64,000 nucleotides of DNA from a virus. Location: positions 2,556 to 66,555 of the IMG/VR virus record IMGVR_UViG_3300036760_001538. One strand, written 5' to 3'. The notes beneath the pieces are model-generated. The model was not told the DNA's origin and made no database searches. It saw only the letters and a program-made list of their open reading frames with translations. Both the position numbers and the translations under genes were made by a program. This document shows, piece after piece, positions 1,840-34,875 of this stretch (positions are counted from its first letter, which is position 1; each line of letters starts with the position of its first letter).

Positions 1840-2208
1840 ATGTCCAGCCCCCCAGTTGTTCGTGTCCGGACCGCCACAACGGAGCAAGTAAGGAAGGCCT
1901 GCCTTCCGCCCGCTTGTCAGCGACTAGTGGAGTTGATGCAGGAGATCCACTTCGGTCGCATCGAGCGGCTGCTGATCCGTGATCATCAGCCCCAGTGGCG
2001 GCCGGCGCCTCGCGTCCTTCGTGATGTCGCTTTGGGCAAGGGAAGCCGCCCCCGCCGGCGAGGAGCGCGGGGCGACTTCCAGCTGAAGGGCACCGTCCGA
2101 GATCTGTTCCGCCATCTCGACAGGCTGTCGGATGGCACCATGATCAGCCTGATCATCCAGGACGGGCTCCCCGTTCGCCTCATCATCGAGGAACCGATCG
2201 AGGCCTGA
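1840..2208 (+). CDS. Small protein with two YezD/DUF2292-like repeats (candidate RNA-binding antiterminator)
   Basis: GGAGG RBS; repeats LVELMQEIHFGRIERLLIRDHQP and LFRHLDRLSDGTMISLIIQDGLP; immediately followed by leader element copy 1. Confidence 0.55.
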   Translation: MSSPPVVRVRTATTEQVRKACLPPACQRLVELMQEIHFGRIERLLIRDHQPQWRPAPRVLRDVALGKGSRPRRRGARGDFQLKGTVRDLFRHLDRLSDGTMISLIIQDGLPVRLIIEEPIEA

Positions 2209-2223
2209 TCCGGCCTCAACTCT

Positions 2224-2319
2224 ACAACCGAATACCACACCAGACATCGACTGGCCGGACGACGGAGGTCGCTGTGGGTGCCGCCATTCTGGCGTGCCTG
2301 CGGCGACCTCTGTTCGTGT
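2224..2319 (+). ncRNA. Structured leader element copy 1 (antiterminator/terminator switch) upstream of the sigma gene
   Basis: ACAACCGAATA (2224-2234); CGACT-GG-CCG-GACGA-CGG-A-GGTCG (2248-2271) overlapping a long G.U-rich hairpin at 2262-2313. Confidence 0.55.
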
Positions 2320-2381
2320 AGCCGTCTTCCCCAGTTGGCGGACACCCACTCGCCCTCCTCGGCGGCCGCAAGGAGGACGAG

Positions 2382-2981
2382 ATGGGTTCCGATCCCAGCC
2401 GCACGGAGCTCGACGCTTATGCCGTTCAGCTCATCAAGCACAGGGCCCGACAGTTGGTTGGCCGGGCCGGTTATACCAAGGACGAACGAGAGGATATTGA
2501 GCAGGACTTGAAGCTCGACCTGCTGCGCAGACTCCGCAAGTTTGACCCGTCCCGCGCGTCACGCAACACCTTCATCGCGCGGGTCGTTGAACACGGCGTC
2601 GCCCGGCTCATCGAGCGCCAAGAAGCCCCGATGCGCGACGTCCGCCGCTGCACGGCTTCCCTGAACGACCGGATAGAGGGCGAGGAAGGCGAGCACGTGG
2701 AGCGCGGCGACCTGGTTGACCAGGATACCTACCTGGAGAGCATCGGGCAGCCCACTATGCCCCTGGCCGATCGGGTCGCGCTGCGGGTGGACCTGGAGCG
2801 AGTGCTCGCGACGCTGACACCTGAGATGCGCGACCTGTGGGAGCGGCGCGCGGAAGGGCAGACCATCACCGAGATATCCCGCGAGACTGGCATTCCTCGC
2901 GGGACGCTCTATGACCGCATGAAGGAGCTGAGACGGCTGGCCGAAGACGCCGGATTGCGGGAGTACATGGAGCCCTCATGA
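2382..2981 (+). CDS. Phage-encoded sigma-70 (ECF-like) RNA polymerase sigma factor
   Basis: Region-2-like EDIEQDLKLDLLRRLRKFDPSRASRNTF; region-4 HTH TITEISRETGIPRGTLYDRM; AGGAGG RBS. Confidence 0.85.
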   Translation: MGSDPSRTELDAYAVQLIKHRARQLVGRAGYTKDEREDIEQDLKLDLLRRLRKFDPSRASRNTFIARVVEHGVARLIERQEAPMRDVRRCTASLNDRIEGEEGEHVERGDLVDQDTYLESIGQPTMPLADRVALRVDLERVLATLTPEMRDLWERRAEGQTITEISRETGIPRGTLYDRMKELRRLAEDAGLREYMEPS

Positions 2982-2987
2982 CCTGGC

Positions 2988-3019
2988 CCGACACTTTCAC
3001 GGCGGCTCCGGTAAGTAAC
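2988..3019 (+). promoter_or_regulatory. Bipartite motif copy 1 (putative phage-sigma promoter)
   Basis: CCGACACTT-N9-CTCCGGTAAGTAAC; identical boxes and spacing at 11907 and 12796. Confidence 0.7.
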
Positions 3020-3066
3020 ACCTGGAGGCCCAGCCGCAGGCCCCGACCTGTGCCTGGGAGGCCAAC

Positions 3067-3378
3067 GTGAACCGAGACATCTACCGATATCGTTTCAACG
3101 AGAATGTCCCACTGCGGGAAGCCGAGGAGTCGCTGCTACTGGCAGTCCTCGCGGTGGAGAGCCTTTACGGCCGCTCCCCGGTTCGCCTCGACGCAGCCTT
3201 CTGCCTTGACCGGGAGAAGCGCTCCTGCGTGGTGGACGCGGGAAGCGAGGTGGGGCGAGCGATCGCCCGTATCTTCACCGGCTTCCTCACCCGCCAGTTC
3301 GGCGAGGAGGCGTTCCGCGTTGAGCGGGCCGGGCCTGGAGCGCCGGAGCCAACGTCCTCGGTGGGGGTGCGCGCGTGA
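3067..3378 (+). CDS. Hypothetical phage protein
   Basis: GTG start with GGAGG RBS; GTGA overlap with the next gene. Confidence 0.7.
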   Translation: MNRDIYRYRFNENVPLREAEESLLLAVLAVESLYGRSPVRLDAAFCLDREKRSCVVDAGSEVGRAIARIFTGFLTRQFGEEAFRVERAGPGAPEPTSSVGVRA

Positions 3379-4310
3379 CGCCTCGCATGGCCACCACCTA
3401 TTCCCTGTGGAGCTTGTTCCGCAACTGCCGGAAGGCATGCTACTGGCGCTATATCCGAGAACTTGCGCCGATCAGGCGTGATCCTCGTCTCGGCTTCGGG
3501 ACGCTCATCCACGAGTGCCTGGAGCGATGGCACCGTGACCGTGACCTCACGGCAGTTCTGGGACACCTTGACCGAAGACTCCCCAACCGGAACCAGGATG
3601 ATGAGCAGTGCCGGGACTGGCGCCTGGCCACCGCTATGATGGCTGGCTACGCCAACCGCTACCCGGTCGAGGAATTCGAGGTTCTCGCCCTTGAGCACAC
3701 CTTCGGAGGGGAGATCGTCAACCCGGCCACTCGTGCACGGTCTCGCAGCTTCGTGCTCGCTGGCAAGGTGGACGGCCTGGTGCGCATCGGGGACGAGCAC
3801 TACGTGCTGGAGCATAAGACCGCCTCCAGTCTCGACGGCGGTTACCTGGAGCGGCTCTGGACCGACTTCCAGATCACCCTCTACGCCTACTACCTGGAGC
3901 AGGCGCTCAGCATTCGCATCACCGGCGTGTTCTACAACCTGCTGCTCAAGGCGCGGCTGAAGCAGCGCCGCACGGAGAGCGATACCGAGTTCGAGGGGCG
4001 CCTGGCAGCCAAGTACGCTCAGCCGGCCATGTTCCACCGGGAGATGCTCTACCTCTCCCGCGACCAGTTCACCGTGCTGCGCGCCGAGCTGTGGGAGCTG
4101 ACCCAGGCCTTCCTCGACGCCAGGCGACGGGACACCTGGTACCAGAACACCGCCTTCTGCTTTCACCACTACCGGCCGTGTCCTTACTTCGCTCTCTGCC
4201 GTTCCGGCGACAGCCCAAACGTGATTGACAACTTCTACCAGCACGTCTCCCCGCACGAAGAGCTGCGGGAACAGCCGGGTGCTTCCGCAAGCGAGGCCCC
4301 CGCATTCTGA
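3375..4310 (+). CDS. PD-(D/E)XK nuclease (Cas4/RecB-like exonuclease)
   Basis: GTLIHECLE, GKVDGLV...VLEHKT, Q.xxY and Cys cluster (CRK...CFHHYRPCPYFALC). Confidence 0.85.
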   Translation: MTPRMATTYSLWSLFRNCRKACYWRYIRELAPIRRDPRLGFGTLIHECLERWHRDRDLTAVLGHLDRRLPNRNQDDEQCRDWRLATAMMAGYANRYPVEEFEVLALEHTFGGEIVNPATRARSRSFVLAGKVDGLVRIGDEHYVLEHKTASSLDGGYLERLWTDFQITLYAYYLEQALSIRITGVFYNLLLKARLKQRRTESDTEFEGRLAAKYAQPAMFHREMLYLSRDQFTVLRAELWELTQAFLDARRRDTWYQNTAFCFHHYRPCPYFALCRSGDSPNVIDNFYQHVSPHEELREQPGASASEAPAF

Positions 4311-4329
4311 CCGAGGGAGGAGAACCACC

Positions 4330-5121: not shown

Positions 5122-5144
5122 TCCACTCACAAGGAGAGTGAAAG

Positions 5145-5654
5145 ATGAGCACCTATGAACCCGATGCCGCAACCCATCCAGCAAGCTCAGGGCAGGCCCA
5201 CGATGCCGACATTGACCTGGCGCAGTTCGATGACGACTTCGCCGAGGCCCCCATCGAGGAGCGCGACTTCGAACCGCTCCCCGATGGCAAGTACCAGGTC
5301 GCGGTCGAGAAGGTCGAGCTGACCCGTGCCCAGACCTCCGGCAATCCCATGTTGAAATGGACTTTGCGCGTGCTCGGCCCCCAGCACAAGGGCCGGCTGC
5401 TCTGGCGCAACAGCGTGATGGCCAGCCGCGAGAACCTCAAGTGGTTGAAGACCGACCTGCACACCTGCGGGCTCGACCTGGAGAAGCTGTCCGACCTGCC
5501 GGCCAACCTGGAGAGACTGCTGGATGTTCGGCTTGAGATCACGAAGCGCACGAAGGACGAGAACGAGAACGTCTACTTCAACCGGCGCATCGTGACCGAG
5601 GACGCGGGCCAGGGATACGACGCGGCCGCCCAGGACGCCCTGAACCCGTTCTAG
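5145..5654 (+). CDS. DUF669-like single-stranded DNA-binding protein
   Basis: FEPLPDGKYQVAVEKVEL...SGNPMLKWTLRV; acidic tail ending NPF. Confidence 0.8.
   Translation: MSTYEPDAATHPASSGQAHDADIDLAQFDDDFAEAPIEERDFEPLPDGKYQVAVEKVELTRAQTSGNPMLKWTLRVLGPQHKGRLLWRNSVMASRENLKWLKTDLHTCGLDLEKLSDLPANLERLLDVRLEITKRTKDENENVYFNRRIVTEDAGQGYDAAAQDALNPF
5173..5199 (+). repeat. REP-like palindrome family A, in frame in the DUF669 gene
   Basis: CCCATCCAGCAAGCTCAGGGCAGGCCC, encoding HPASSGQA. Confidence 0.5.
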
Positions 5655-5655
5655 C

Positions 5656-24513: not shown

Positions 24514-25083
24514 ATGCCGCGAGGGACGCCGGAAGAACGAGAGGCGATTGCGCGCCGGCAGGAGCGGGTCTGGCACTTGCGCGTGGTGCGCAAACTGACC
24601 GAACACGAGGTCGGCCAGCTCATGAGCATCTCGCGGCGCACCATCACCCGCGACCTGGCGGCGATGCGAGCGCGAGGGCAGTCCGCGGTAGCCCTTTCGG
24701 CGGCTTCAGAGAAGGCGGTGGTGGACGCGGGGCTGCAAGCGGCCTCGGAGTTGGACGCCATCGTGCGGCAGGCCTGGACCGACTGCATGGCCGCTCCCGA
24801 CGGGTCGCTGGCGCGGGTGGGCTATCTCAACCTCGTTCTCAAATCCATCGGGGAACGGCTGCGCATCCTGCAGTCCCTTGGACTGATGAAGAAGGTTCCG
24901 GAGGAGGTGTTACTTGGTGACCTCGATTTGCGACGACTCAGCGACAGGGAGGCCGAATCTGCCCTTACCTTCCTCCGCGCGTGTGCGAGAGGCGCTGGAG
25001 GCCCGGCTGGCGGCCCTGCTGGAGGAGCGGCGGAATCCCAGGCCGTGGATCGAAGCGAACCTGTGGATTCGCACGAAGGATAG
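24514..25083 (+). CDS. Putative terminase small subunit (N-terminal HTH)
   Basis: TEHEVGQLMSISRRTITRDL HTH; directly upstream of and overlapping terL. Confidence 0.7.
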   Translation: MPRGTPEEREAIARRQERVWHLRVVRKLTEHEVGQLMSISRRTITRDLAAMRARGQSAVALSAASEKAVVDAGLQAASELDAIVRQAWTDCMAAPDGSLARVGYLNLVLKSIGERLRILQSLGLMKKVPEEVLLGDLDLRRLSDREAESALTFLRACARGAGGPAGGPAGGAAESQAVDRSEPVDSHEG

Positions 25084-26539
25084 ACGAGTGATTCCGTTCC
25101 TGCTCAACGCGGCCCAGGTAGATTACTGGGATCACCGCACGCTTCGGGACATGATTCTGAAGCCGCGGCAGCTCGGCTTCACGACACTGATCTGCGGCCT
25201 GTTCTTCGCGGACACTTTGCTGCGACTGAATACGACTTCGGTGATCGTGGCCCACGATACTGACTCGAGCGAGAAGATCTTTCGGATCGTGCAACTGTTC
25301 TGGGAGCGGCTGCCAGAGGAGGAGCGCCGACGAGTAGGGCCGCCTCGTTTCTCAAACCGCAGAGAGTTCCTGTGGCCGAAGATCAACAGCCAGTTCTACG
25401 TGGGCACCGCCGGCAGCCTGACGTTCGGACGGGGACAGACCATCAACAACCTGCACTGCTCGGAGTTCGCCTTCTGGCCGAAGCCTGAAGAAGCCCTGAC
25501 TGCGCTGACGGAAGCGGTGCCAACCGGTGGGCGGATCGTCATGGAGTCCACCGCAAATGGGATGGGCAACTTCTTTCACAGCCTTTGGACCGAGGCCAAA
25601 AGCGGCGGCAATGACTTTGCGACGGCGTTCTATGTCTGGTGGGAAGACCCAGCCTATCGGATCGCGGGCGAGCCACTGACCGACCTCAGCCAGGAGGAGA
25701 CGCGGCTCAAGCGCGCGTGGAGCCTTGACGACGATCAGATTCGTTGGCGGCGCGATAAGCAGCGGCAGCTTCGAGACCGCTTCAAGGCCGAATACCCTGA
25801 GGATGATGTGACTTGCTTCCTAGCGAGCGGGCGCTGCTGCTTCGACACCCAGTCGCTGCTGGCAATCCAGGCCCGCATCGTCACCGAGCCCGCGCCGGTT
25901 GTGCTTGCTTCGCTCAAGGGCACCAGGAGCAGCGACCTCAGCGTCGCTCCTGCGCGTTTGTTGATCTGGAAAAGGCCGGAGGCGGGTCGGCAGTACGTCA
26001 TTGGCGCGGATGTCGGTGAAGGACTGGCCGGTGGGGATGCCTCCTGCGCCTGTGTGCTGGATCGGGAGAGCGGAGAGCAAGTGGCGGAACTGCACGGCCG
26101 TATCTCGCCGGATCGCTTTGGCCACCTGCTGGATGCCCTGGGCCGCTCCTACAACCTCGCGACGGTGGCAGTGGAGCGAAACAACCACGGGCACTCGACG
26201 CTGAACACGCTGCGGAACGTATGTCGCTATGCGCGGCTTTACTACCACGTGCGCTATGACCAGACGGGCAGAGGGAAGCCCATGCTCGGCTGGCCGACCG
26301 ATCAGGCCACCAAGCCCATCCTGGTGGACGACCTGGCAGCGGCGATTGCGGGCGGGCACCTGCTGATTCACTCGCCCGACCTGGTGGACGAATGCCTGAC
26401 CTTCGTGACCACGGACAGCGGCTCCCAGGAGGCGCAAGAGGGCAAGTTCGACGACCGGGTCATGGCGGCTGGTATCGCCTGGCAGGCGCGCAAGCGCGGT
26501 GTGTCTCGCGGCACGACTCAACGACCGGCGGGATGGTAG
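24983..26539 (+). CDS. terL: Terminase large subunit (start uncertain; ORF open from 24914)
   Basis: ILKPRQLGFTT, LHCSEFAFW, ESTANG, IGADVGEG, ERNNHG, DDRVMA. Confidence 0.92.
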   Translation: MREALEARLAALLEERRNPRPWIEANLWIRTKDRRVIPFLLNAAQVDYWDHRTLRDMILKPRQLGFTTLICGLFFADTLLRLNTTSVIVAHDTDSSEKIFRIVQLFWERLPEEERRRVGPPRFSNRREFLWPKINSQFYVGTAGSLTFGRGQTINNLHCSEFAFWPKPEEALTALTEAVPTGGRIVMESTANGMGNFFHSLWTEAKSGGNDFATAFYVWWEDPAYRIAGEPLTDLSQEETRLKRAWSLDDDQIRWRRDKQRQLRDRFKAEYPEDDVTCFLASGRCCFDTQSLLAIQARIVTEPAPVVLASLKGTRSSDLSVAPARLLIWKRPEAGRQYVIGADVGEGLAGGDASCACVLDRESGEQVAELHGRISPDRFGHLLDALGRSYNLATVAVERNNHGHSTLNTLRNVCRYARLYYHVRYDQTGRGKPMLGWPTDQATKPILVDDLAAAIAGGHLLIHSPDLVDECLTFVTTDSGSQEAQEGKFDDRVMAAGIAWQARKRGVSRGTTQRPAGW

Positions 26540-26549: not shown

Positions 26550-26810
26550 ATGCAAACATTGAAAGCACCAGCCACGAGTCTCAAGTCTCTGGGAGAGGCC
26601 CTCCTCCAGATCAGCGACGAGTTGCCAGTGAAACTGCCTGCCGGTTGTGAGCTGCGAGTCGTCTCCGCCGCCCAGGCGGCGCTGCTCGACTTCTTCGCCG
26701 ACAATCCCTACTGCACCATCGAGGGTCTCGACGTGCACGCGGGCGAACCGGAACTGGTGCGGCTGCGGTTGTCGGAGGCGGCGGTAAAGAAGATCAAGCT
26801 CGCCAGGTGA
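26550..26810 (+). CDS. Small YezD/DUF2292-like protein
   Basis: QAALLDFFADNPYCTIEGLDVHAGEPELVR...KKIKL resembles each half of the 1840 protein. Confidence 0.55.
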   Translation: MQTLKAPATSLKSLGEALLQISDELPVKLPAGCELRVVSAAQAALLDFFADNPYCTIEGLDVHAGEPELVRLRLSEAAVKKIKLAR

Positions 26811-26873
26811 CGGCAATCACGCGAGCCTGCATGCCTGGCTCCCGAATTCCTGTCCCACCCTGCTACAGCTATC

Positions 26874-26902
26874 TTGACCATTGTTTCGGTATATGGTATA
26901 GT
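26874..26902 (+). promoter_or_regulatory. sigma70 promoter of the defence cassette
   Basis: TTGACC, 17 bp spacer, TGnTATAGT. Confidence 0.75.
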
Positions 26903-26985
26903 TTCACCGAGACGGTGAAACTGGCGACTTGGCGAAACACCTCGGCGGTTCGGCAGGGCGGCTATGTTCACCGTTACGGTGGAGC
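26900..26985. promoter_or_regulatory. Two inverted-repeat operators (AbiEi-type autoregulation)
   Basis: Perfect AGTTTCACCG-AGA-CGGTGAAACT (26900-26922) and related TGTTCACCG-TTA-CGGTGGAGC (26965-26985). Confidence 0.65.
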
Positions 26986-26990
26986 AAGCC

Positions 26991-28091
26991 ATGCCAGCGA
27001 TCAAAGAGCGAGACCTGACAGCAGAGACCGCGCAGCGCCTTCGTGAGGTGCTGGAGGGAGTGCCATTCGTGGATGTATTGCGGATCGAGCAGCAGGTCCC
27101 CATCGCGCCCGGGCGCGTGTCCGACCTGGTGGTGGAGATTCAGACGCCCGTCGGAGCGCGCCGGCTCCTGGTGGAGGTGAAGACAGAGGGTCTTCCGAGG
27201 ACCCTGCGTAATGCAGGAGAGCAGCTCAAGGCTTATGTCGCGAGTGTGCCAGATGCCTACGGGGTGGTGGCTGCTCCCTACATCAGCGACCGGGGCCGGG
27301 CTCTCTGCCAGCAGTTCGGGGTCGGCTGTCTCGATCTGGCTGGGAATGTTCTGCTCGCCTTTGACCAAGTGTTCATTGAGAAGACCGGATACCCCAATCC
27401 CTCGCCCGTGCGGAAACTTCGGAGGGCGCTGTTCTCACCGCGGTCCACGCGGGTCTTGCGTGTCCTACTCGCCGACCCTACGCGGCGGTGGTACGTCCGC
27501 GACCTGGCGGCCGAAGCGCGGATCAGTCTTGCGCAGACGTCCAACTTGAAGCGGGCGCTGCTCGAACAAGAGCTGCTGGGCGAAGAGCGCCGCCGCTTCT
27601 GGCTGGCGAAACCTGAAGACCTCCTTCGCGATTGGGCGCAGGCCTACACCTACGAAGTGAACGACGTGCGGTCTTTGTACTCGATGCTCCGCATTCCAGA
27701 AGTGGAAGAGCGCCTTGCCGCGGAGTGTGAACGGAGAGGCATGCGCTACGGCTTGGCCCTGTTTTCGGGTGCAAGCCGGGTCGCGCCGTTCGCTCGCTAT
27801 GACCGCGCCTTTGCATTCGTTGATGAGAGACCCGAGGAGATTGCAGCGGCATTGGAGTTGAAGCCAGTCCCCACGGGGGCCAACGTGTTCCTGCTCCGCC
27901 CCTACGATGAGGGCGTCTTCTACGGGCTCCAGGAGGTCGGGGGAGCGAAGGTCGTGTCGGACATCCAACTTTACCTCGACTTGAGGAGCTACAAGGGCCG
28001 TGGCGAAGAGGCCGCAGACTTCCTCTACGAAAGGCGCATCAAGCCGCGATGGAACCCAGAACCCGATCAGACTACACAGCCAGAGCAGTAG
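26991..28091 (+). CDS. AbiEi-like type IV TA antitoxin / transcriptional regulator with N-terminal REase-like domain
   Basis: ATG 26991 after GGAG; LVEVK, GCLDLAGN, wHTH VRDLAAEARIS, VSDIQLYLDL...GRGEEAA. Confidence 0.75.
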   Translation: MPAIKERDLTAETAQRLREVLEGVPFVDVLRIEQQVPIAPGRVSDLVVEIQTPVGARRLLVEVKTEGLPRTLRNAGEQLKAYVASVPDAYGVVAAPYISDRGRALCQQFGVGCLDLAGNVLLAFDQVFIEKTGYPNPSPVRKLRRALFSPRSTRVLRVLLADPTRRWYVRDLAAEARISLAQTSNLKRALLEQELLGEERRRFWLAKPEDLLRDWAQAYTYEVNDVRSLYSMLRIPEVEERLAAECERRGMRYGLALFSGASRVAPFARYDRAFAFVDERPEEIAAALELKPVPTGANVFLLRPYDEGVFYGLQEVGGAKVVSDIQLYLDLRSYKGRGEEAADFLYERRIKPRWNPEPDQTTQPEQ

Positions 28092-28906
28092 ACGCGGCCT
28101 TCTCGGTGCTCATCGAGTTGTTCGGCATGCTCGGCGAGTTCCGCGAACACATCGCGGTCATCGGCGGCTGGGTGCCGCACCTGATCCTCCGCGATGCAGA
28201 CACGGAGCCAGCGGGCACCTTGGATGTTGATCTGGCGATAGACTTTGCGCACATCTCAGACGATACCTACAGCACGTTCCTCAAGGCGCTTGAGACGCGC
28301 GGCTACCGACAAGACCACGAGCAGCCCTTCCGATTCTTCAAGGCGGTCACCATCGGAGATGGCCCGCCGGTCGAGGTCGAAGTTGATCTCCTGGCCGGAG
28401 AGTACGGGGGGACCGGGAAGGGGCGTCGCACGCAAGTCGTCCAGGATGTCCGAGCCCGCAAAGCACGTGGGGCTGACTTGGTCTTCGACCACTGCGTCCA
28501 GGTTCGCGTCGAGGGACGGCTGCCGAACGGTGCGCTTGACACGGTGACCGTGAAGGTCGCAGACGTGGTGGCCTTCCTCGTGATGAAGGGAATGGCTCTT
28601 CATGACCGGCGCAAGGAGAAGGATTGCTACGACATCTTCTACTGCGTCGCCAACTACCCAGGAGGTGTTGCTGCCTTGGTAGAGGCCTTCCGGCCTCATA
28701 TCGACAAGCGGCTGGTGGCTGAAGGCTTGTCGAAGATACGGAGCAAGTTCCTCTCACCTGAGCATTTCGGGCCGGTCGCGGTCGCTGAGTTTCTTGAGAT
28801 CGCCGATCCGGAGGAGCGTGCCATCGTGACTCGCGATGCCTATGAGCGCCTGAATGCGCTCCTGGAGCAACTGCAAGTCAGGCTCTGGGAGGATTCCCCG
28901 GCGTAA
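28049..28906 (+). CDS. AbiEii-like nucleotidyltransferase toxin
   Basis: VIGGW...GTLDVDL...VDLL...MKG...KDCYDI. Confidence 0.8.
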   Translation: MEPRTRSDYTARAVDAAFSVLIELFGMLGEFREHIAVIGGWVPHLILRDADTEPAGTLDVDLAIDFAHISDDTYSTFLKALETRGYRQDHEQPFRFFKAVTIGDGPPVEVEVDLLAGEYGGTGKGRRTQVVQDVRARKARGADLVFDHCVQVRVEGRLPNGALDTVTVKVADVVAFLVMKGMALHDRRKEKDCYDIFYCVANYPGGVAALVEAFRPHIDKRLVAEGLSKIRSKFLSPEHFGPVAVAEFLEIADPEERAIVTRDAYERLNALLEQLQVRLWEDSPA

Positions 28907-29000
28907 CATGATCAGATTTGGCGTCCGGCAGTCCTTCAACACAGTCGTTCAACAGGAGAGGGTTCTTGCTGAACGAACTGGGAGCGAAGAGGGGTGAGCA

Positions 29001-29435
29001 ATGAGCAAGGATGTGACGGTAGGATATAGGCACGCTGGCAACCTGGAAGATCTTCTGAGTGCCGTGAAGCAAGCGATAGGTGAGATGGGTCTGGTGCTCA
29101 GGAATGAGCAGGCGTCAGACGAGTCGTTCAGGATCGAGGCCGGCGAGAGAATGAGGTGGCTCACTACGAACTGGCCAGTGAAGTTCGACATCAAAGCCGT
29201 TCGAGAGGATGACTGCAACAGACTGATCATCCACGCGTGGGCGTCTCTCTTCTCCATCACGCAGGAGTTCAGCACCAACGCCAAAGCACAGGAGTTCCTT
29301 GGGCTCATCAAGCTACACGCACCAGAAGCGCCTGGGCATGCGACCGACGGCGTAGAGAGAAAGGCCTGCCCCAGGTGCGGCGAGATGATAGCCAAGACCG
29401 CGAAGATGTGCCGCTTCTGCAAGTCTGAATTGTAG
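29001..29435 (+). CDS. Hypothetical protein with C-terminal Zn ribbon
   Basis: CPRCGEMIAKTAKMCRFC. Confidence 0.7.
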   Translation: MSKDVTVGYRHAGNLEDLLSAVKQAIGEMGLVLRNEQASDESFRIEAGERMRWLTTNWPVKFDIKAVREDDCNRLIIHAWASLFSITQEFSTNAKAQEFLGLIKLHAPEAPGHATDGVERKACPRCGEMIAKTAKMCRFCKSEL

Positions 29436-29469
29436 ACCTGGCGTAGCGGGCAGAATACAAGGACCCAAC

Positions 29470-30615
29470 ATGGATCACGAAACGCCACCTGCACTGCTCC
29501 CTCAGATGGAAGTCGAAGCGACCATCGACGGAACTCCTGGGATACTGGCGATGGAGGTGGGGCCGTTCGGCCAGACTAAGGTTCTGTTCAGGACCGAACG
29601 GATGCTTGTTCAGACCGACTCGGCGGAAGACAACCTGACGGACTGGACGGCCGATCTTGCCGATGGCCGGAGGGTAACAATGCATCGCTGTTACCCGACC
29701 CGTGTGTGCTTCTCGCTCGGTGCCAACGCCGGTAAGGGATGTAGCACAAGCCTGCTCCCCGCGGGAGGCATAACCATCGAGAGACCAGCGTCTCATTATT
29801 CAACGGCCGAGTTCGCACTGGCGAACCTCTGGCTTCCCGCTATCGCGCCACTCAAGTTCGACGCCTTGGACGTCGAGTTTGTGCCTGCTGCATGGGGCGG
29901 CCCTCACTACGTCGACCTTCCGAAGGGTAGTGAAGCAAGAGTAGTCTGGTGGATGCGGGTTCAGCTTGGTGGGACCACCAGGATTGAGGAAGCATACGAA
30001 GCTGCCCTGTGCTTCTCCGATCTCGCGTCGCTCTTCCTTGATGAAAGGGTCAGAGTGCCCGCGTACAGAGTGCTGGATGCTGAAGGTAACGAAGTGCTCT
30101 CTCACTTAAACAGCATCCGTTGGCCAGTCATTACGAAGCGTGGACGGGACTACACCGACCGGGTACAGGATGCTCTGCTGGCGGTCGGAGCCGCACCTGT
30201 GCGCGCCGAATTTGAGGGCCTCCACCTCCACCGCTACGTCGACACAGTGCTTGAGGCCTGGCGCGAAGACGTGTTCCTGGAGACCAGTCTCGCGTGCATC
30301 CTGATGGCACTGGAGGGGATCACGTACCGATGGGAGATCACTAAGGGAGGCATGTCACCGGAGGAAGCACAGAAACGGAATCTCGTAGAGAAACTGCGCT
30401 TCATGAACACGTCGCTGCAGTTCATAGATAAGAGATACATGAGCGACCCATTGCGCGAGGACCTTCGTAACCCCATTGTCCACACTGGAGCCGTGCCATC
30501 TATGACGGCCCAGGAGTTGCATCGATGGGTTGATGACTTAGTGCTTCTGGCTCGTGATGTTTTCTTCCGGGTACTGGGCTTCAGTCGAACCTTTGTCGGG
30601 ACGAGCACTCCTTGA
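29470..30615 (+). CDS. ApeA-like HEPN-domain protein
   Basis: Beta-rich N-terminus; ALEG...LRNPIVHTG (RxxxxH) C-terminus. Confidence 0.6.
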   Translation: MDHETPPALLPQMEVEATIDGTPGILAMEVGPFGQTKVLFRTERMLVQTDSAEDNLTDWTADLADGRRVTMHRCYPTRVCFSLGANAGKGCSTSLLPAGGITIERPASHYSTAEFALANLWLPAIAPLKFDALDVEFVPAAWGGPHYVDLPKGSEARVVWWMRVQLGGTTRIEEAYEAALCFSDLASLFLDERVRVPAYRVLDAEGNEVLSHLNSIRWPVITKRGRDYTDRVQDALLAVGAAPVRAEFEGLHLHRYVDTVLEAWREDVFLETSLACILMALEGITYRWEITKGGMSPEEAQKRNLVEKLRFMNTSLQFIDKRYMSDPLREDLRNPIVHTGAVPSMTAQELHRWVDDLVLLARDVFFRVLGFSRTFVGTSTP

Positions 30616-30640
30616 CGCTGCCGCACCCCGGGCATAGAAT
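30612..30640 (+). promoter_or_regulatory. sigma70 promoter upstream of the portal leader
   Basis: TTGACG, 17 bp spacer, TAGAAT. Confidence 0.7.
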
Positions 30641-30644
30641 GCTG

Positions 30645-30726
30645 ACAATCGAATAGACGCTCGGCGACCGGATAACCGGAGGCGAGCCGCAGGTTCCCTG
30701 ACAGGACCTCGGCTCGCTTTTGCTTT
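30645..30726 (+). ncRNA. Structured leader element copy 2 (antiterminator/terminator switch) upstream of the portal
   Basis: ACAATCGAATAG; GCTCGGC-GA-CCGG-ATAA-CCGG-A-GGCGAGC overlapping terminator stem 30682-30717 followed by TTTTGCTTT. Confidence 0.7.
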
Positions 30727-30748: not shown

Positions 30749-32248
30749 GTGGCACTTGATCTGAGCACATATTCGCCCAAGGGGCACCAGGAGCGGATCG
30801 CCGCCTACCAGCGGTATGAGCGGCTGTTCCTGGGGCAGCACAAGCTGGTCTTCGCGGTAGTGCCGCAGCCCTACCAGATGAAGCGCTATATCGTGGCCAA
30901 CTTCGCCGGGCTGATCTCGCGCTTATCCGCAGATCTCCTGTTCGGCGAGCAGCCGGACTTCCTTTCGCCTTCGCTCAAGGCAGGCCTGGCAACACAGGAG
31001 GATGAGAAGGCGCAGGAAGCGCTGGCCCAGGTCGTCAGTCGCAATAACCTGCACGCCGTCAACTACGAATCGGCTCTGTCCAACTCGTTCCGGGGGGATG
31101 CAGTCTACAAGGTGCGCTGGGGGAAGCGGACTCCGCAGGCGCAGCAACCTGAAGCCATCATCGAGGAGGTGCCTGCGAGCATCTACTTCCCCGAACTAGA
31201 TGACGATGATGTGCGCAAGGTGATCCGCGTCACCCTCGCCTGGGTGAAGCGTGATCCGAAGGATACCAAGCGTGCCTACCTTCGGGCAGAGGTGCACGAG
31301 CCAGGCGTCATCCGCCACCAGCTCTTCGACCTTGGCAGCGTCTCGACCCTGTCTGTGGCTGGCAGTCAGGTTGGCACGATCACGATTGGAGGCAAGACGC
31401 TCCAGCAGATTCCCCTCAAGACCCTCGAGGCCTACCAGGACCTGCCGGAGGAAGAGCAGACTGGTCTCGACCACATCCCGATCTTCCACGTGCCGAACTT
31501 CCGCTATGGGTCTCGCTTCTGGGGCATCTCGGACTACGAGGGACTGGAGTCACTCTTCGAGTCCTTGAACAACCGCGTCTCGCAGATCGACGAGGTGCTG
31601 GATAAGCACGTGGCTCCGAAAATCGTGGTGCCGCCCGGCTTCGTGGACGAGGATGGCAAGATCCGCTTCGACCGGATGGAGACCATCGAGTTGGGCCCGG
31701 GCGATCAGCCGCCCTCCTACATCACCTGGGACGCCCACCTGACCGCGGCGTTCACGCAGTTTGAGAAGCTGCTCGACCTGCTGTTCATGCTCTCAGAGAC
31801 TGCGCCTTCTGCGTTTGGCCTGGATAAGTTCGGCGTCGCCGAGAGCGGGCGGGCGCTGCGCCTGCGGCTGCTCCGGACGCTCGCGAAGATCAATCGCAAG
31901 CGGCTCTACTACGATACTGCGCTCAAGGCGGCGCTGCACACCGCCCAAATTCTCGATGTGACCCATGGCTCAGGAGAATACGAGCCTGCCGAGCCAACCA
32001 TCCAGTGGGCAGACGGGCTGCCGGAGGACATGGTCGAGATGGCGGAGATCGAAAGCCAGCGCTTGGCGGCAGGCAACACTTCGGTCGAGTCCTCGGTGCG
32101 CCGCCTGGACGGCCCAGACGCGGTGGAGGCTGAGATGGGGCGGATCGGCGAGGAGACGGGACAGGCAATCGCTCTCACCGGGGCGGCCGGCGGTAAGGGG
32201 CAGGAAGCCCGCACCGAGGAGCAGCCGGAGGCCGGGGCAGAGCAGTGA
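30749..32248 (+). CDS. Phage portal protein (SPP1 gp6-like)
   Basis: 499 aa; ANFAGLISRLSADLLFGE, WGISDY, ESGRALRLR; located between terL and the minor head gene. Confidence 0.88.
   Translation: MALDLSTYSPKGHQERIAAYQRYERLFLGQHKLVFAVVPQPYQMKRYIVANFAGLISRLSADLLFGEQPDFLSPSLKAGLATQEDEKAQEALAQVVSRNNLHAVNYESALSNSFRGDAVYKVRWGKRTPQAQQPEAIIEEVPASIYFPELDDDDVRKVIRVTLAWVKRDPKDTKRAYLRAEVHEPGVIRHQLFDLGSVSTLSVAGSQVGTITIGGKTLQQIPLKTLEAYQDLPEEEQTGLDHIPIFHVPNFRYGSRFWGISDYEGLESLFESLNNRVSQIDEVLDKHVAPKIVVPPGFVDEDGKIRFDRMETIELGPGDQPPSYITWDAHLTAAFTQFEKLLDLLFMLSETAPSAFGLDKFGVAESGRALRLRLLRTLAKINRKRLYYDTALKAALHTAQILDVTHGSGEYEPAEPTIQWADGLPEDMVEMAEIESQRLAAGNTSVESSVRRLDGPDAVEAEMGRIGEETGQAIALTGAAGGKGQEARTEEQPEAGAEQ
30961..30986 (+). 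repeat. REP-like palindrome family A variant, in frame in the portal gene
   Basis: CCTTTCGCCTTCGCTCAAGGCAGGCC, encoding SPSLKAG. Confidence 0.45.
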
Positions 32249-32349
32249 GCTGTACGTGGCGGATCTGTATGGCCCCATGTGCGCCGTGCGCAGTCTGGTT
32301 TGGGGCCTGTGGACACAGTGTCACAGCCTGTCGTGAGGAGTGTTGAGGC

Positions 32350-34416
32350 GTGCCTCCTCCCATCGGGCGTCGCAGCATTGAGGAGTTTCGGCGGGCGTTC
32401 ACCGGCGAGATAGACTCGCTGGCCGCCCTTTACCGCGATGCGGCCGCAGATATGATGGATGTGCTGGCCGACGCGGCCGCCCTGGCCGGCCAGCGAGCGC
32501 GCGCTGTCGCCCACCTTCGCCAGTATCAGACCATCCTCGCCAACCTCGGTGACGAGGCGGCTGCCTGGATAGAGTTCAACATCCCCCGCGCCTACGAGGT
32601 CGGGATCGAGTTTGCGGACGAGGGAATCAGGAACATCCGCCGGGCGGGAATCAACCTGCGTCGTCGAGGCACGACGATAACGGGTCGGCGTGAGAGAGAT
32701 GTATTCTCCCAGGTGCACCGGGAGGCGGCGCACGCGATCATGCAGTCCATGCTCCAGACCACCAGTGTAGCACTGGCGCAGATTGGCCGACGCGTGGACG
32801 ATGTTTTCCGCCGCGAGGGAATGCTGGCTGTTGCCAGGGGGATTGCAGGCGGGCGTGCTCGCATCGACGTAAGCCGCGAACTGGAGCAGCGGCTGCTCGC
32901 TGCGGGCAGGCCGACGTTCGTGGATGCGCTGGGGCGGCAGTGGCCCCTTGACCGCTACGCCGAGATGGTGGCTCGCACCACCACCCGCGAGGCGATGACC
33001 CAGGGGACGATCAACCGTCTGCGGGAGCACGGCGTTACTCTGGCCCAGGTCTCGGCCCATAACGCGGAAGACTTCTGCCGCTACTACGAAAACGCCATTG
33101 TCTCCCTGGACGGCTCGCACCCTGTCTACCCGCCGATCTCGGCGATCAACGGCCCCCCGCCCTGGCATCCGAACTGTATCCACGTGCTCACGCCCTTCGT
33201 GGAGCGCCTAGCGACTGACGAGGAGAAGAAACGGGGCATCATCTCGCCCGACCTGCTCAACAAGCCTCCGGCCGAACTCCAGCGGCGCTTCCGCAAGGAG
33301 TTTCCTGGCGTGGCCCGGGCCGCGGGAAAGCGAGGGCTTGCACGGGCGGGGCGGGCAAGGGTTGCCGCGGCGCGAGGGCGGCCCAAGCCCACACGGGCGC
33401 ATGCCCCCGAGCCTGAGCTGCGCGCCCTGGAGGAGGGGACTGTCCTGCGCCGCACCTACAAGGGCCGCGAGTACCTCGTCCAGGTGGTGGAGGGAGGCAA
33501 GGTCTACTTCGAGGGCGGCGTCTATCACTCGCTGACCGATGTCGCCCGGATCATCACTGGGCAGAGGGCAATCAGCGGGCCGGCTTTCTTCGGCGTGGCG
33601 GAGCGCGGCAAGCGCACCGGGCAGGCCGTGGCCGCCGCGCGGCCCGTCGCTGCTCCGCCCAAGCTGCCGAAGCCGAAGACAGACCTGGAACTGACGGGGC
33701 GCACTTGCGATGACTTGGCTGAGATGATGGGCGCGAAGCATGGATGGAATGGAGACTTGCGCACCGGTCGAGGCGCCTTCGGCGGGCACAAGGACTGGGA
33801 CTGCGCCATCAGCATCGGCTCGGAGGCAAGGGATCGCGTGGATGCGATGCTGAAGCACGATGCAGCTTCCTGGGCAAAGCTTTCCCGGAACCAGAAGATG
33901 GAAATGACCTCTTCCTTCAACACCCTGGTGCATGAGGCGACTCATGCTATGGGGGTGGAGGGGGCAATCAAGACCCACGAGTACGCGACGGCGGCGCAGC
34001 GGTGGATAGAGGAAGGCCTTACCGCCGCGGGGGCCGACGAGACGGCGCCGAAGCTCTTCGAGCGGATCATGGGGTTCCCCTCCGGCCTGGACAAGCGCGA
34101 CTTTGCCGGGATGGCAAGCTACAGCGATTACCAGCAGGCCCTGGCGAAGGCGCTCGGCGGGCCTTATGCCGGGCGCTCGATGTCTGAGCCAATGCGGGGG
34201 ATTGACCCAAAGCTCTACCTGGACTTGGCCTACCGCACGCCTCGCGACCAGCGGCTCTGGGAGCTATCGAAGCGCATGGAGAGCTACTACGGACGAACAG
34301 AGCGCGGCGTGAGAACGGCGGTGGAGATAGAAGCCATCGTAGGGCACTCGGCAGACCACAAAGTGGTGGTGAATTTCGCCGAAGAGGCCCTGGCACTACA
34401 GCAAGCGAGGCCGTAA
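32350..34416 (+). CDS. MuF-like minor head protein fused to DUF2924-like and zincin metallopeptidase domains
   Basis: GRQWPLDRYAEMVART...PPWHPNCIH; GTVLRRTYKGREY...YHSLTDVARIITG...GPAFFG; LVHEATH...WIEEG. Confidence 0.8.
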   Translation: MPPPIGRRSIEEFRRAFTGEIDSLAALYRDAAADMMDVLADAAALAGQRARAVAHLRQYQTILANLGDEAAAWIEFNIPRAYEVGIEFADEGIRNIRRAGINLRRRGTTITGRRERDVFSQVHREAAHAIMQSMLQTTSVALAQIGRRVDDVFRREGMLAVARGIAGGRARIDVSRELEQRLLAAGRPTFVDALGRQWPLDRYAEMVARTTTREAMTQGTINRLREHGVTLAQVSAHNAEDFCRYYENAIVSLDGSHPVYPPISAINGPPPWHPNCIHVLTPFVERLATDEEKKRGIISPDLLNKPPAELQRRFRKEFPGVARAAGKRGLARAGRARVAAARGRPKPTRAHAPEPELRALEEGTVLRRTYKGREYLVQVVEGGKVYFEGGVYHSLTDVARIITGQRAISGPAFFGVAERGKRTGQAVAAARPVAAPPKLPKPKTDLELTGRTCDDLAEMMGAKHGWNGDLRTGRGAFGGHKDWDCAISIGSEARDRVDAMLKHDAASWAKLSRNQKMEMTSSFNTLVHEATHAMGVEGAIKTHEYATAAQRWIEEGLTAAGADETAPKLFERIMGFPSGLDKRDFAGMASYSDYQQALAKALGGPYAGRSMSEPMRGIDPKLYLDLAYRTPRDQRLWELSKRMESYYGRTERGVRTAVEIEAIVGHSADHKVVVNFAEEALALQQARP

Positions 34417-34418
34417 GC

Positions 34419-34646
34419 ATGTCCGATTTCATCGACGAACTACTGCGTGGAAGGAGGAAAGGGCACCGCATCCGGCCCGGCTTCATGGAAGAGGCGAGCG
34501 CCGCGATTATGCGGGCCGCTGGCACGCCGGAGGCCCGGCGGACCCTCCAGCGCTATCTCCGACGAGCCCGAGGCGGCCTGGAGCGCGCCCAGCTCATGCG
34601 CATGGAGGAGATGCTTGTCATGGCGGAGGGCGCCGGCGAGGATTGA
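34419..34646 (+). CDS. Small helical protein (candidate immunity protein)
   Basis: Starts 2 bp after the MuF stop; 75 aa. Confidence 0.55.
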   Translation: MSDFIDELLRGRRKGHRIRPGFMEEASAAIMRAAGTPEARRTLQRYLRRARGGLERAQLMRMEEMLVMAEGAGED

Positions 34647-34738
34647 CAAGCCCCCTCGGATCAGGTCAGGGGCGGACAGCAAGGCGCTGGCACGCAGCAG
34701 ACCACCCCGCCCGGGACACAGGCCGCGGGAAGAGGGTA

Positions 34739-34766
34739 TTGACACCTGGCCCGGGTGCGATAGAAT
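34739..34766 (+). promoter_or_regulatory. sigma70 promoter of the capsid operon leader
   Basis: TTGACA, 16 bp spacer, TAGAAT. Confidence 0.7.
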
Positions 34767-34771
34767 AGGGT

Positions 34772-34875
34772 GAACTGAATAGCATACCGCCGACTCGATA
34801 ACGAGAGGCGGGCTTTCTGAGAGCTGTGCCTGGTAGCCCCAGGCGGCTCAGAGAAAGCCCGCCTCTTTGCTTTTT
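34772..34875 (+). ncRNA. Structured leader element copy 3 (antiterminator/terminator switch) upstream of the capsid operon
   Basis: GAACTGAATAG; CCGCC-GA-CTCG-ATAA-CGAG-A-GGCGG overlapping a 15-bp terminator stem (34804-34818/34852-34866) followed by TTGCTTTTT. Confidence 0.7.

What the first reader, a model, noticed from the sequence alone, without database searches (positions are those of the whole stretch)
1840..34875. Candidate protein-RNA antitermination system: three covarying leader elements plus two YezD/DUF2292-like proteins
Seen: copies 2 and 3 align without gaps from the -10 box: TAGAAT-N10-GAATAG-N9-GA-[CCGG ATAA CCGG at 30668 / CTCG ATAA CGAG at 34794]-AGGCG. The 4-bp stem covaries, and the outer stem (GCTCG/CGAGC vs CCGCC/GGCGG) shares its 3' strand with the 5' arm of an intrinsic terminator ending TTTGCTTT. 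Copy 1 (2224-2319) has the same box (ACAACCGAATA) and CGACT-GG-CCG-GACGA-CGG-A-GGTCG overlapping a long hairpin. The three copies gate the sigma factor, the portal operon and the capsid operon. Copy 1 directly follows the tandem-repeat protein at 1840, and a single-repeat homologue (26550) sits before the cassette that precedes copy 2. Recalled: these proteins resemble YezD/DUF2292, function unknown. Inference: the small proteins bind the GA/A internal-loop hairpin and block termination, controlling phage gene expression. I know of no description of this pairing.
Basis: partly seen in the sequence, partly recalled or inferred. Interest (0 to 1): 0.92.

Follow-up and report, generated by a model that had tools for sequence, protein, structure and literature searches.

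The report
Phage leader RNA switches with cognate small proteins
This prophage carries conserved RNA hairpin switches in front of its sigma-factor, portal and capsid genes, each class encoded next to a small protein of one uncharacterised superfamily that probably binds the hairpin to turn the genes on, a pairing that appears undescribed but is not yet shown by experiment.

Summary
The observation largely holds. Copies 2 and 3 each consist of a sigma-70-type promoter, a box, an antiterminator hairpin and an overlapping intrinsic terminator. They belong to one RNA family (R1). R1 occurs twice per genome in all 7 related records scanned, before the portal gene and the capsid operon, and its stems covary.

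Copy 1 is not an R1 member. It belongs to a second, widespread family (R2), a three-tier hairpin with strong covariation. In 66 of 82 hits R2 lies between a P0001-family gene and a sigma gene.

Profile comparison supports three points: P0001 is a tandem repeat, and both P0002 and the small proteins encoded after terminase in relatives are single-unit relatives of that repeat. Pfam DUF2292 is not reached.

Small-protein type and hairpin core switch together, including at the capsid leader 4 kb away, while the flanking genes stay 85-92% identical. This points to cognate protein-RNA pairs. Binding and antitermination remain inferred. In this window copy 1's competing hairpin has no U-tract, so its output may be translational.

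There is no match in Rfam, Pfam, PHROGs or GenBank phages. The only earlier scan notes are on this same window.

The parts
1840..2208 (+). P0001, 122 aa. It is a tandem repeat of a helix + beta-hairpin unit and belongs to a large uncharacterised, mostly viral family.
   Evidence: Translation. The family has 1561 representative clusters at E<=1e-3. The repeat is supported by hhalign at probability 85%, with controls. There is no Pfam or PHROG family; DUF2292 scores 14.4 bits against a cut-off of 22.
2239..2280 (+). R2-class three-tier hairpin (copy 1 core). ACCAG box; P1 2244-2248/2271-2275; P2 2249-2252/2267-2270; GG bulge 2253-2254; P3 2255-2257/2263-2265; A bulge 2266; then GGGUG.
   Evidence: Model R2 scores 71.7 bits here. 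On 74 distinct family members 96.1% of cells are paired and 7 of 12 pairs show double changes. P1 was not part of the model, yet it is 92.7% paired.
2259..2319 (+). Long competing hairpin. Its 5' arm reuses the 3' strand of the R2 hairpin. It looks like a terminator but has no U-tract in this window.
   Evidence: Fold (whole leader -64.9 kcal/mol, z -4.1). Tail analysis: 20 of 74 relatives have a U-rich tail; the window does not.
2343..2378 (+). CACCCAC (2343-2349, complementary to GUGGGUG at 2274-2280), followed by an anti-SD CCUCCUC / SD GGAGGA hairpin just before the sigma start codon.
   Evidence: Sequence; folds of relatives. A CACCCAC-like box occurs in 56 of 74 relatives and an anti-SD..SD..ATG arrangement in 31 of 74, by regular expression.
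2382..2981 (+). Phage sigma-factor-like gene, gated by copy 1.
   Evidence: Pfam Sigma70_r2 and r4_2; PHROG sigma factor 1.7e-16. Homologues follow 69 of 82 R2 hits.
26550..26810 (+). P0002, 86 aa. Single-unit small protein directly after the large terminase gene; candidate cognate factor of leaders 2 and 3.
   Evidence: Translation. TerL ends at 26539. hhalign of the P0002 family against P0001 repeat 1 gives probability 90.6%. All 8 loci with this protein type carry the CCGG-AUAA-CCGG portal hairpin.
30612..30640 (+). Sigma-70-type promoter of leader 2 (TTGACG-17-TAGAAT).
   Evidence: A TTGAC-N17-TAnnnT promoter is conserved upstream of the portal gene in relatives.
30645..30656 (+). R1 5' box ACAAUCGAAUAG; role unknown.
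   Evidence: Conserved columns in alignments A2 and A3.
30660..30686 (+). R1 antiterminator hairpin, portal leader. Outer stem CUCGGC/GGCGAG; bulges GA and A; inner stem CCGG/CCGG; loop AUAA.
   Evidence: Model R1 scores 43.7 bits. Covariation.
30677..30726 (+). Intrinsic terminator of leader 2, with U-tract at 30718-30726. It overlaps the hairpin's 3' half.
   Evidence: Fold; sequence.
30749..32248 (+). Portal gene.
   Evidence: PF05133, 4.3e-11.
34739..34766 (+). Sigma-70-type promoter of leader 3 (TTGACA-16-TAGAAT).
34773..34782 (+). R1 5' box AACUGAAUAG.
34787..34811 (+). R1 antiterminator hairpin, capsid leader. Outer stem CCGCC/GGCGG; bulges GA and A; inner stem CUCG/CGAG; loop AUAA.
   Evidence: Model R1 scores 49.1 bits. 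The hairpin alone folds at -14.1 kcal/mol, z -3.0.
34803..34875 (+). Intrinsic terminator of leader 3, with U-tract at 34866-34875. It overlaps the hairpin's 3' half.
   Evidence: Fold at -58.4 kcal/mol, z -7.25.
34891..37196 (+). Start of the capsid operon: a 117-aa conserved protein, the scaffold gene (35341-36204) and the major capsid gene (36258-37196).
   Evidence: Pfam PF06810 and PF17236. Conservation across relatives.

Best explanation
The prophage uses two families of cis-acting leader RNA switches. Each is probably read by its own small RNA-binding protein, and the proteins belong to one superfamily built from a helix plus beta-hairpin unit.

R1 (leaders 2 and 3). A strong host-type promoter fires into a short leader. 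By default the leader folds into an intrinsic terminator. A less stable upstream hairpin shares its 3' strand with the base of that terminator. This hairpin has a 5-7 bp outer stem, a 5' two-purine bulge, a 3' A bulge, a variable 4-bp inner stem and a variable loop. The single-unit protein encoded just after the large terminase gene (P0002 here) is made from the preceding operon. It binds and holds this hairpin, so the terminator base cannot form and transcription runs into the portal and capsid operons. The gene order resembles lambda Q before PR'-tR'. The mechanism resembles LicT/BglG holding a RAT hairpin.

R2 (copy 1). The tandem-repeat protein P0001 is proposed to hold a three-tier hairpin. 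The 3' strand of that hairpin otherwise forms a long hairpin; in this window there is also an SD-sequestering hairpin further downstream. Binding would release expression of the sigma factor.

Shown here: the RNA structures, their mutual exclusivity with the competing hairpins, their genomic positions, the protein-RNA co-occurrence and co-variation, and the remote homology among the proteins.

Inferred: that the proteins bind the RNA, and the direction of the effect.
For: R1 IS A REAL RNA FAMILY.
- 21 of 28 portal-upstream regions of relatives show promoter + hairpin + terminator. The 7 without have portals <=49% identical.
- Model R1 finds exactly two strong hits in each of 7 of 7 related records, G001-G007, and two in the window.
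- On a sequence-only MAFFT alignment of 38 distinct cores, 88.8% of cells pair against 75.0% in shuffles. 58 cells carry double changes against 18.4 +/- 3.3 (0 of 500 shuffles reach this). Sliding the register drops pairing to 35-47%.
- One-sided changes in the outer stem are U-G only (24 cells at two columns, no A-C), as expected for RNA on this strand and not for a DNA palindrome.

SPECIFICITY.
- Within a phage, the portal and capsid hairpin cores are identical or differ by <=2 nt. Between phages they differ.
- 39 loci have a small ORF starting at or just after the TerL stop. All 8 with the P0002 type carry GA-CCGG-AUAA-CCGG-A. All 9 with the type 'IPRDKQRCWEDL..' carry AU-C-AUC-G(C/U)GCA-GAU-A-C. 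All 12 with the type 'MPRCDVHANW..' carry GA-CUCG-ACAU(C/G)-CGAG-A. Each further type has its own core.
- Window versus L016: DNA is 91.9% identical up to the TerL stop and 84.8% from the portal start onward, with no alignable DNA over the small gene and leader 2.
- The 75-aa ORF before leader 3 is nearly the same in the window and in L016 and L013, which carry a different hairpin type, so it is not the specificity factor.

R2.
- A DNA pattern taken from the hairpin core found >=120 viral contigs. 72 of the 77 loci tested give full-length R2 hits.
- 96.1% of cells are paired and 7 of 12 pairs show double changes. The P1 helix was not modelled, yet 4 of its 5 pairs covary.
- Of 82 hits, 66 have a P0001-family gene upstream and 69 have a sigma homologue downstream. 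Neither gene was part of the search.
- 13 further hits lie elsewhere, before a DUF2924 gene plus a serine recombinase, which implies a factor acting in trans.

PROTEINS.
- P0001 half 1 against half 2: probability 85%. P0002 family against half 1: 90.6%. TerL-adjacent family against half 1: 88.7%. Reversed or shuffled controls give <=19.5%; a sigma alignment gives 0.8%.
- G006 has R1 leaders and a single-unit protein but no P0001-family hit. This fits one protein class per RNA class.
Against: - No experiment or expression data exist; no RNA run was listed for this DNA.
- AlphaFold models of P0002 and P0001 were of low confidence (pLDDT 51.8 and 51.2), so no RNA-binding fold could be recognised.
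- No known RNA-binding domain is detected in any of the proteins.
- The small gene and the portal leader are adjacent, so part of their co-variation is simple linkage.
- Direct hhalign of the P0002 family against the TerL-adjacent family finds nothing (probability 0.2%). Their kinship rests only on both matching P0001 repeat 1.
- In L145 and L147 the P0001 homologue overlaps the sigma gene with no leader between them. This fits a protein-protein role with sigma equally well.
- In the window, copy 1's long hairpin lacks a U-tract.
- The window's two R1 inner stems differ at two pairs, so a stem-sequence-specific reader would have to tolerate that difference.
- The sequences used for pair counts were collected with structure-aware filters, which inflates the percentage paired, though not the double changes.
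Confidence: 0.55

Rival explanations
1. The RNA switches are real, but something other than the neighbouring small proteins sets them. Candidates are a host elongation factor, RNA polymerase pausing at the box, or ribosome position on the upstream ORF. The small proteins would then do other jobs. P0001 could be a partner, anti-sigma or co-activator of the adjacent sigma factor. P0002 and the TerL-adjacent proteins could be packaging or head accessory proteins.
For: - The P0001-sigma gene pair is conserved in 66 of 82 R2 loci.
- The pair persists with overlapping genes and no leader in L145 and L147.
- In many relatives the single-unit ORF runs through the leader promoter and stops at the UAG or UAA of the leader box, 1-9 nt before the hairpin. 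A terminating ribosome could therefore mask the hairpin's 5' arm.
- No RNA-binding domain is detected.
Against: - The capsid leader keeps the same box and core although no real ORF ends there.
- Both hairpin cores of a phage change in step with the small protein while flanking genes stay similar.
- R2 second copies lie far from P0001 and sigma, which calls for a diffusible reader.
- A host factor would not explain phage-specific cores.
- Two independent RNA classes each sit beside a member of the same protein superfamily.
Confidence: 0.25
2. The small proteins bind the hairpin, but as a loading site, like nut/boxB for lambda N. They would then travel with RNA polymerase as processive antiterminators, rather than simply blocking the adjacent terminator by holding the competing hairpin.
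For: - The layout is a conserved single-stranded box followed by a hairpin close to the transcript's 5' end, like boxA-boxB.
- Cores are phage-specific, as with the N-boxB pairs of lambdoid phages. The N-boxB comparison is recalled knowledge.
- The operons behind the leaders are long.
Against: - In every R1 member the hairpin's 3' strand is part of the terminator stem. That overlap is needed for a competition switch and is unnecessary for a loading site.
- In R2 second copies the competing hairpin buries the SD and AUG, which is a translational output that a polymerase-bound factor would not explain.
Confidence: 0.12
3. The 'hairpins' are DNA palindromes: operators at +20 to +45 bound by a dimeric repressor or activator. 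The apparent covariation would then be half-site symmetry.
For: - The cores are inverted repeats placed just downstream of promoters.
- Symmetric operators co-evolving with their binders can mimic compensatory change.
Against: - One-sided changes are U-G wobbles only, and on one strand (UG 10 and 14 cells at two outer-stem columns, no A-C).
- The bulges are asymmetric (2 nt against 1 nt).
- The 3' arm always overlaps a terminator or sequestering stem.
- R2 shows three stacked helices with covariation.
Confidence: 0.03

Closest known systems
LicT/BglG/SacY antiterminators with RAT hairpins (abstract of PMC5393181 seen; review PMC12591593 searched for terms)
   Same: A short, imperfect hairpin with internal loops overlaps the 5' arm of a more stable intrinsic terminator. 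A protein holding the hairpin would prevent termination.
   Different: - The proteins here have no CAT or PRD domains (no Pfam hit).
- They are 70-120 aa and phage-encoded.
- Their targets are phage late and regulatory operons.
- The hairpin cores are phage-specific.
- The 2025 review contains no instance of 'phage', 'prophage', 'YezD' or 'DUF2292'.
Lambda Q with PR'-qut-tR' (abstract of PMC9388147 seen)
   Same: The regulator gene sits at the end of the earlier operon, immediately before a strong constitutive late promoter whose short transcript ends at a terminator. The result is temporal control of structural genes.
   Different: - Q binds DNA at the promoter and rides on the polymerase; no RNA hairpin competes with tR'.
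- Here a covarying RNA hairpin overlaps the terminator.
- There are two such units per genome.
Lambda N with nut (boxA + boxB) (recalled; abstract of PMC3526286 seen)
   Same: A small phage protein, a box plus a hairpin near the 5' end of the transcript, and phage-specific hairpin/protein pairs.
   Different: - N is processive and needs Nus factors.
- boxB does not overlap a terminator.
- No arginine-rich N-like peptide was recognised in P0002.
Phage Mu Com activating mom translation (abstract of PMC6483171 seen)
   Same: A small phage protein binds a hairpin and thereby opens a neighbouring structure that hides the translation start. This matches the R2 second copies and possibly the sigma leader.
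   Different: - Com is a zinc finger; the proteins here have no such motif.
- R2 is also joined to terminator-like hairpins (20 of 74 with U-rich tails).
HK022 put RNA (recalled)
   Same: A structured RNA just downstream of phage promoters that governs read-through.
   Different: - put acts in cis on the polymerase without a protein and does not overlap the terminator.
- It does not explain phage-specific cores tied to a variable protein.
Pfam DUF2292 / YezD
   Same: A small helix plus beta-hairpin unit with a G-x-hydrophobic ... G-x-P pattern. Weak hits from P0001, from one P0001 relative and from one TerL-adjacent protein all fall on that unit.
   Different: - All scores (13.9-14.4 bits) are below the 22-bit cut-off.
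- P0002 has no hit.
- The family model finds nothing in the whole record at E<=1.
- No function is known for DUF2292 in the held literature.

Membership tests
Pfam PF10055 DUF2292 (YezD) | Score at or above the curated gathering cut-off (22 bits). | tested here: not met
   P0001 scores 14.4 bits. P0002 has no hit. The G006 small protein scores 13.9 bits. P0140 scores 14.3 bits. The family search of the whole record gives 0 matches at E<=1.
BglG/SacY/LicT-RAT antitermination | CAT RNA-binding domain followed by PRD domains in the protein. | tested here: not met
   No Pfam family for P0001, P0002 or the TerL-adjacent proteins at E<=1, other than the weak DUF2292 hits.
BglG/SacY/LicT-RAT antitermination | Antiterminator hairpin with internal loops whose 3' part overlaps the terminator's 5' arm. 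| tested here: met
   Folds and sequence of leaders 2 and 3. The same overlap is seen in the leaders of the relatives.
ANTAR antitermination | Two tandem hexaloop hairpins, plus an ANTAR domain protein. | tested here: not met
   There is a single bipartite hairpin with 3-6 nt loops. No ANTAR domain is found in the window proteins scanned.
Lambda Q-type late antitermination | Regulator gene directly upstream of a constitutive late promoter plus a terminator. | tested here: met
   The small ORF lies between TerL and the portal-leader promoter in 39 loci. In the window a cassette is inserted between them.
Lambda Q-type late antitermination | DNA Q-binding element in the promoter, and a sigma-dependent promoter-proximal pause. 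| not testable with these tools
   The box stays next to the hairpin when 35 nt are inserted after the start site. This argues against a pause element at a fixed distance from the start, but pausing itself cannot be measured here.
Lambda N/nut | boxA plus boxB on the RNA, and processive action with Nus factors. | tested here: inconclusive
   A box-plus-hairpin layout is present. Processivity and Nus dependence cannot be tested here. The overlap with the terminator argues for local competition.
Any Rfam 15 family | Covariance-model score at the gathering threshold. | tested here: not met
   0 matches in the whole window at gathering thresholds. Only sub-threshold chance-level hits appear around the three leaders.
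Mu Com-type translational activator | Zinc-finger protein binding a hairpin next to a translation-inhibiting structure. | tested here: not met
   No zinc-finger family is detected in P0001 or P0002. The RNA logic is similar in the R2 second copies, where GGAG..AUG lies within 60 nt in 10 of 11.

The most novel reading that the evidence does not exclude
A widespread, undescribed superfamily of phage small RNA-binding regulators, built from one or two helix/beta-hairpin units. Each type would have its own cognate bulged hairpin, forming orthogonal protein-RNA pairs comparable to N-boxB. These pairs would switch terminators or ribosome-binding-site sequestering hairpins off, and so time sigma-factor, integrase-module, portal and capsid expression in uncultivated phages.
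Probability: 0.5. Interest if true: 0.88.

Novelty: new variant of a known kind. Interest (0 to 1): 0.8.

Why it matters
If the pairing holds, it adds a new protein family and two new RNA motif families to the short list of phage antitermination and anti-sequestration systems (N, Q, put, Com).

It would show that hairpin-holding antitermination, so far known from bacterial metabolic operons, also times phage late genes. It would also supply a natural set of at least ten apparently orthogonal small-protein/hairpin pairs. Those pairs would be useful for studying RNA recognition and as compact genetic switches.

The scale is considerable. The tandem-repeat family has 1561 clusters at 50% identity. 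Its RNA partner occurs in more than 120 viral contigs. Yet neither is present in Pfam, PHROGs, Rfam or the GenBank phage records searched.

Tried and rejected
- **Structure prediction.** P0002 with a 22-row alignment gave pLDDT 51.8. P0001 with a 3-row alignment gave pLDDT 51.2. Both are too poor for fold search, so no fold search was run. With hindsight, the deeper P0001 alignment (A8) should have been used.
- **Complex prediction of sigma with P0001**: no verdict. It is not used as evidence either way.
- **The look-up of sequencing runs**: no RNA holder listed.
- **ESM Atlas.** P0001 returns only unnamed, mostly viral clusters. P0002 returns no usable hit.
- **tblastn of P0001 and P0002 against 50,697 GenBank phage records:** no match.
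- **Genome-contig scan with the portal protein:** only 3 distant loci, all without leaders. The host therefore remains unknown. One TerL-adjacent family member is labelled by its source as coming from an Armatimonadota MAG.
- **Direct searches for P0002 in relatives** by the genome search found it only in G001 and G002. I first read this as evidence against the protein link. I dropped that reading when the positional equivalents appeared.
- **The 75-aa ORF at 34419-34646** was considered as the specificity factor and rejected.
- **A sigma-dependent pause reading of the GAAUAG box** was judged unlikely.
- **Exact-pattern scan for R1 in viral contigs** gave only close relatives plus chance hits.
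- **Literature.** 'DUF2292'/'YezD' returned one genome announcement plus unrelated papers (listing only). A six-term antitermination search listed the known N, Q, p7, gp39, AlpA and LoaP systems (listing and abstracts). None describes this pairing. These two searches, are the whole basis for 'not in print'. Supplements were not consulted.

Full report
**Setting.** The window is bases 2556-66555 of a 66,555-base IMG/VR provirus record, about 65% G+C. Nearly all genes lie on the + strand, in this order:
- XRE repressor and ImmA-like protease
- P0001 (1840-2208)
- a sigma-like gene (2382-2981)
- recombination and replication genes, then methylases
- a ParB-like gene, a small-terminase-like gene, and large terminase (24914-26539)
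- P0002 (26550-26810)
- an AbiEi/nucleotidyltransferase cassette with its own promoter
- portal (30749-32248), then a MuF-like head protein
- scaffold and major capsid genes

**Observation, copies 2 and 3.** Each copy follows a near-consensus sigma-70 promoter. In each, the 3' half of a small bulged hairpin forms the base of the 5' arm of a hairpin followed by a U-tract.

**R1 is a family.**
- Portal homologues retrieved 45 viral loci. Of the 28 upstream regions I printed, 21 had the same layout: TTGAC-N17-TAnnnT, a box resembling AACYGAAUAG, a bulged hairpin and a terminator. The other 7 had portals at most 49% identical and no intergenic space.
- I built covariance model R1 from 16 distinct sequences, leaving copy 1 out. 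It finds two strong hits in the window. It also finds two in each of the seven larger related records, G001-G007, always before the portal gene and the capsid operon. Fifty-one more hits came from metagenome loci.
- On a MAFFT alignment of 38 distinct cores, 88.8% of cells pair, against 75% in shuffles and 35-47% with a slid register. Fifty-eight cells carry changes on both sides, against 18.4 +/- 3.3 in shuffles (0 of 500 reach this).
- The three variable inner pairs each use four pair types. One-sided changes in the outer stem are always U-G (smaller set). This pattern indicates RNA rather than a DNA palindrome.
- Caveat: the sequences were gathered with structure-aware tools. The percentage paired therefore leans high; the compensatory changes do not.

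**Who reads R1?**
- Within one phage the two hairpin cores are identical or nearly so. Between phages they differ. That asks for a phage-specific factor acting in trans.
- BLAST-type searches found P0002 only in two close relatives. However, reading the DNA after the terminase stop in other relatives showed a 70-90 aa ORF at the same position. These ORFs share the pattern W..L......GG(F/Y/H)G.v.v.i.f..G.P..l.V. In several relatives the ORF runs through the leader promoter and ends at the UAG or UAA of the leader box.
- In 39 loci with such an ORF, protein type and portal-hairpin core correspond one to one (8, 9 and 12 loci for the three commonest types). Some of these loci are repeated samplings of one virus.
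- Adjacency alone would produce this correspondence for the portal leader. It would not for the capsid leader, which lies 4-5 kb away beyond conserved genes and carries the same core.
- Window and L016 are 91.9% identical up to the terminase stop and 84.8% identical from the portal start onward. Even so, their small proteins and their hairpins are unrelated.
- The 75-aa ORF before leader 3 does not follow hairpin type.

**Copy 1 belongs to a different family (R2).**
- R1 does not detect copy 1.
- P0001 homologues in 12 viral loci are followed by a sigma homologue. In most of them the spacer holds a conserved hairpin with the same general architecture: an outer stem, a GG bulge, CC(G/A)C-NNN-G(C/U)GG, and an A bulge. 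This hairpin overlaps a long hairpin.
- Model R2 does not hit copies 2 or 3.
Of 77 loci tested, 72 gave full-length R2 hits, 82 hits in all.
- The structure has three tiers. Over 74 distinct sequences, 96.1% of cells pair and 7 of 12 pairs show double changes. The outermost helix was not in the model, yet 4 of its 5 pairs covary.
- Of the 82 hits, 66 have a P0001-family gene upstream and 69 have a sigma homologue downstream. Three of the hits lacking P0001 have fewer than 40 nt of upstream sequence available.
- Thirteen hits lie elsewhere, before a small ORF, a DUF2924 gene and a large serine recombinase. There the competing hairpin buries GGAGG and AUG.
- Only 20 of 74 primary elements have a U-rich tail after the long hairpin, and the window's copy does not. 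In the window an anti-SD/SD hairpin precedes the sigma start codon. The output at copy 1 may therefore be translational, at least in part.

**The proteins.**
- The P0001 family is large: 1561 clusters at 50% identity with E<=1e-3. It is unnamed and mostly viral.
- I split a 30-row alignment into halves. Half 1 matches half 2 at hhalign probability 85%. The P0002 family matches half 1 at 90.6%, and the terminase-adjacent family at 88.7%. Reversed or column-shuffled halves reach at most 19.5%, and a sigma alignment 0.8%.
- The earlier whole-protein comparisons were weaker.
- Pfam DUF2292 is not reached (13.9-14.4 bits against a cut-off of 22).
- G006 has R1 leaders and a single-unit protein but no P0001-family hit.

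**Mechanism.** The best reading is protein-held antiterminator or anti-sequestering hairpins. The logic is LicT-RAT-like. The gene order is Q-like for R1. The R2 copies that hide a start codon are Com-like. I put this at 0.55. Three rivals remain:
- Another reader sets the switches and the small proteins do other jobs, with P0001 as a sigma partner (0.25).
- The hairpin is a loading site for a processive, N-like factor (0.12).
- The hairpins are DNA operators (0.03).

**Novelty.** I found no family in Rfam 15, Pfam, PHROGs or GenBank phages. A 2025 review of RNA-binding antiterminators does not mention phages or DUF2292. The logic is known; the parts and their context appear new.

**Limits.** Both structure models were poor. 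No RNA data were found. The host is unknown.

Noticed in passing
L015-L021, L063, L075, L078 (relatives); the equivalent window position is occupied by the cassette at 26811-30611: In relatives without the inserted cassette, the small ORF after terminase reads through the -35 and -10 of the portal-leader promoter. It stops at the UAG or UAA of the conserved leader box, so its C-terminal tail ('..PLTG..') is encoded by promoter DNA.
   Followed up: partly
L152, L153, L163, L175, L180, L184, L212, L216, L222, L231 (second R2 hits); also L166, L174, L229: A second copy of the copy-1-type RNA lies 5-7 kb from the P0001-sigma pair. It sits before a small ORF, a DUF2924 gene and a large serine recombinase. 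Its competing hairpin buries the Shine-Dalgarno sequence and the AUG.
   Followed up: partly
window 35226-35267: A weak R1-like hit (17.8 bits). It is a hairpin, UCCCGCC-AU-AGGCGGG, after the first capsid-operon gene, and it is conserved in L013, L031 and L032. It may be an internal attenuator or terminator.
   Followed up: no
window 2274-2280 and 2343-2349: GUGGGUG, in the long hairpin's 5' arm, is complementary to CACCCAC, which lies just 5' of the anti-SD. This suggests a third alternative pairing that could link the hairpin switch to sigma translation. A CACCCAC-like box is present in 56 of 74 relatives.
   Followed up: partly
window 26874-30615: A cassette with its own promoter (TTGACC-17-TATAGT with a TG extension) is inserted between P0002 and leader 2. 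It carries an AbiEi-like gene, a nucleotidyltransferase, a zinc-ribbon protein and a 381-aa unknown. Relatives carry other cargo at the same site, for example a 214-aa ORF in L013.
   Followed up: partly
window 482-510: A perfect TTGACA-17-TATAAT promoter precedes the XRE repressor / ImmA-like protease pair, upstream of P0001.
   Followed up: no
G000 153-656 (upstream of the window) and window 32350-34416: A stand-alone DUF2924-like ORF at the record's start resembles the DUF2924 segment fused into the MuF-like head protein. In other phages DUF2924 sits beside the serine recombinase, behind an R2 copy.
   Followed up: no
L013, L031, L032 capsid leaders: An extra GC-rich hairpin of about 35 nt is inserted between the -10 element and the box. 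The box stays next to the antiterminator hairpin, so it belongs with the hairpin rather than with the promoter.
   Followed up: partly
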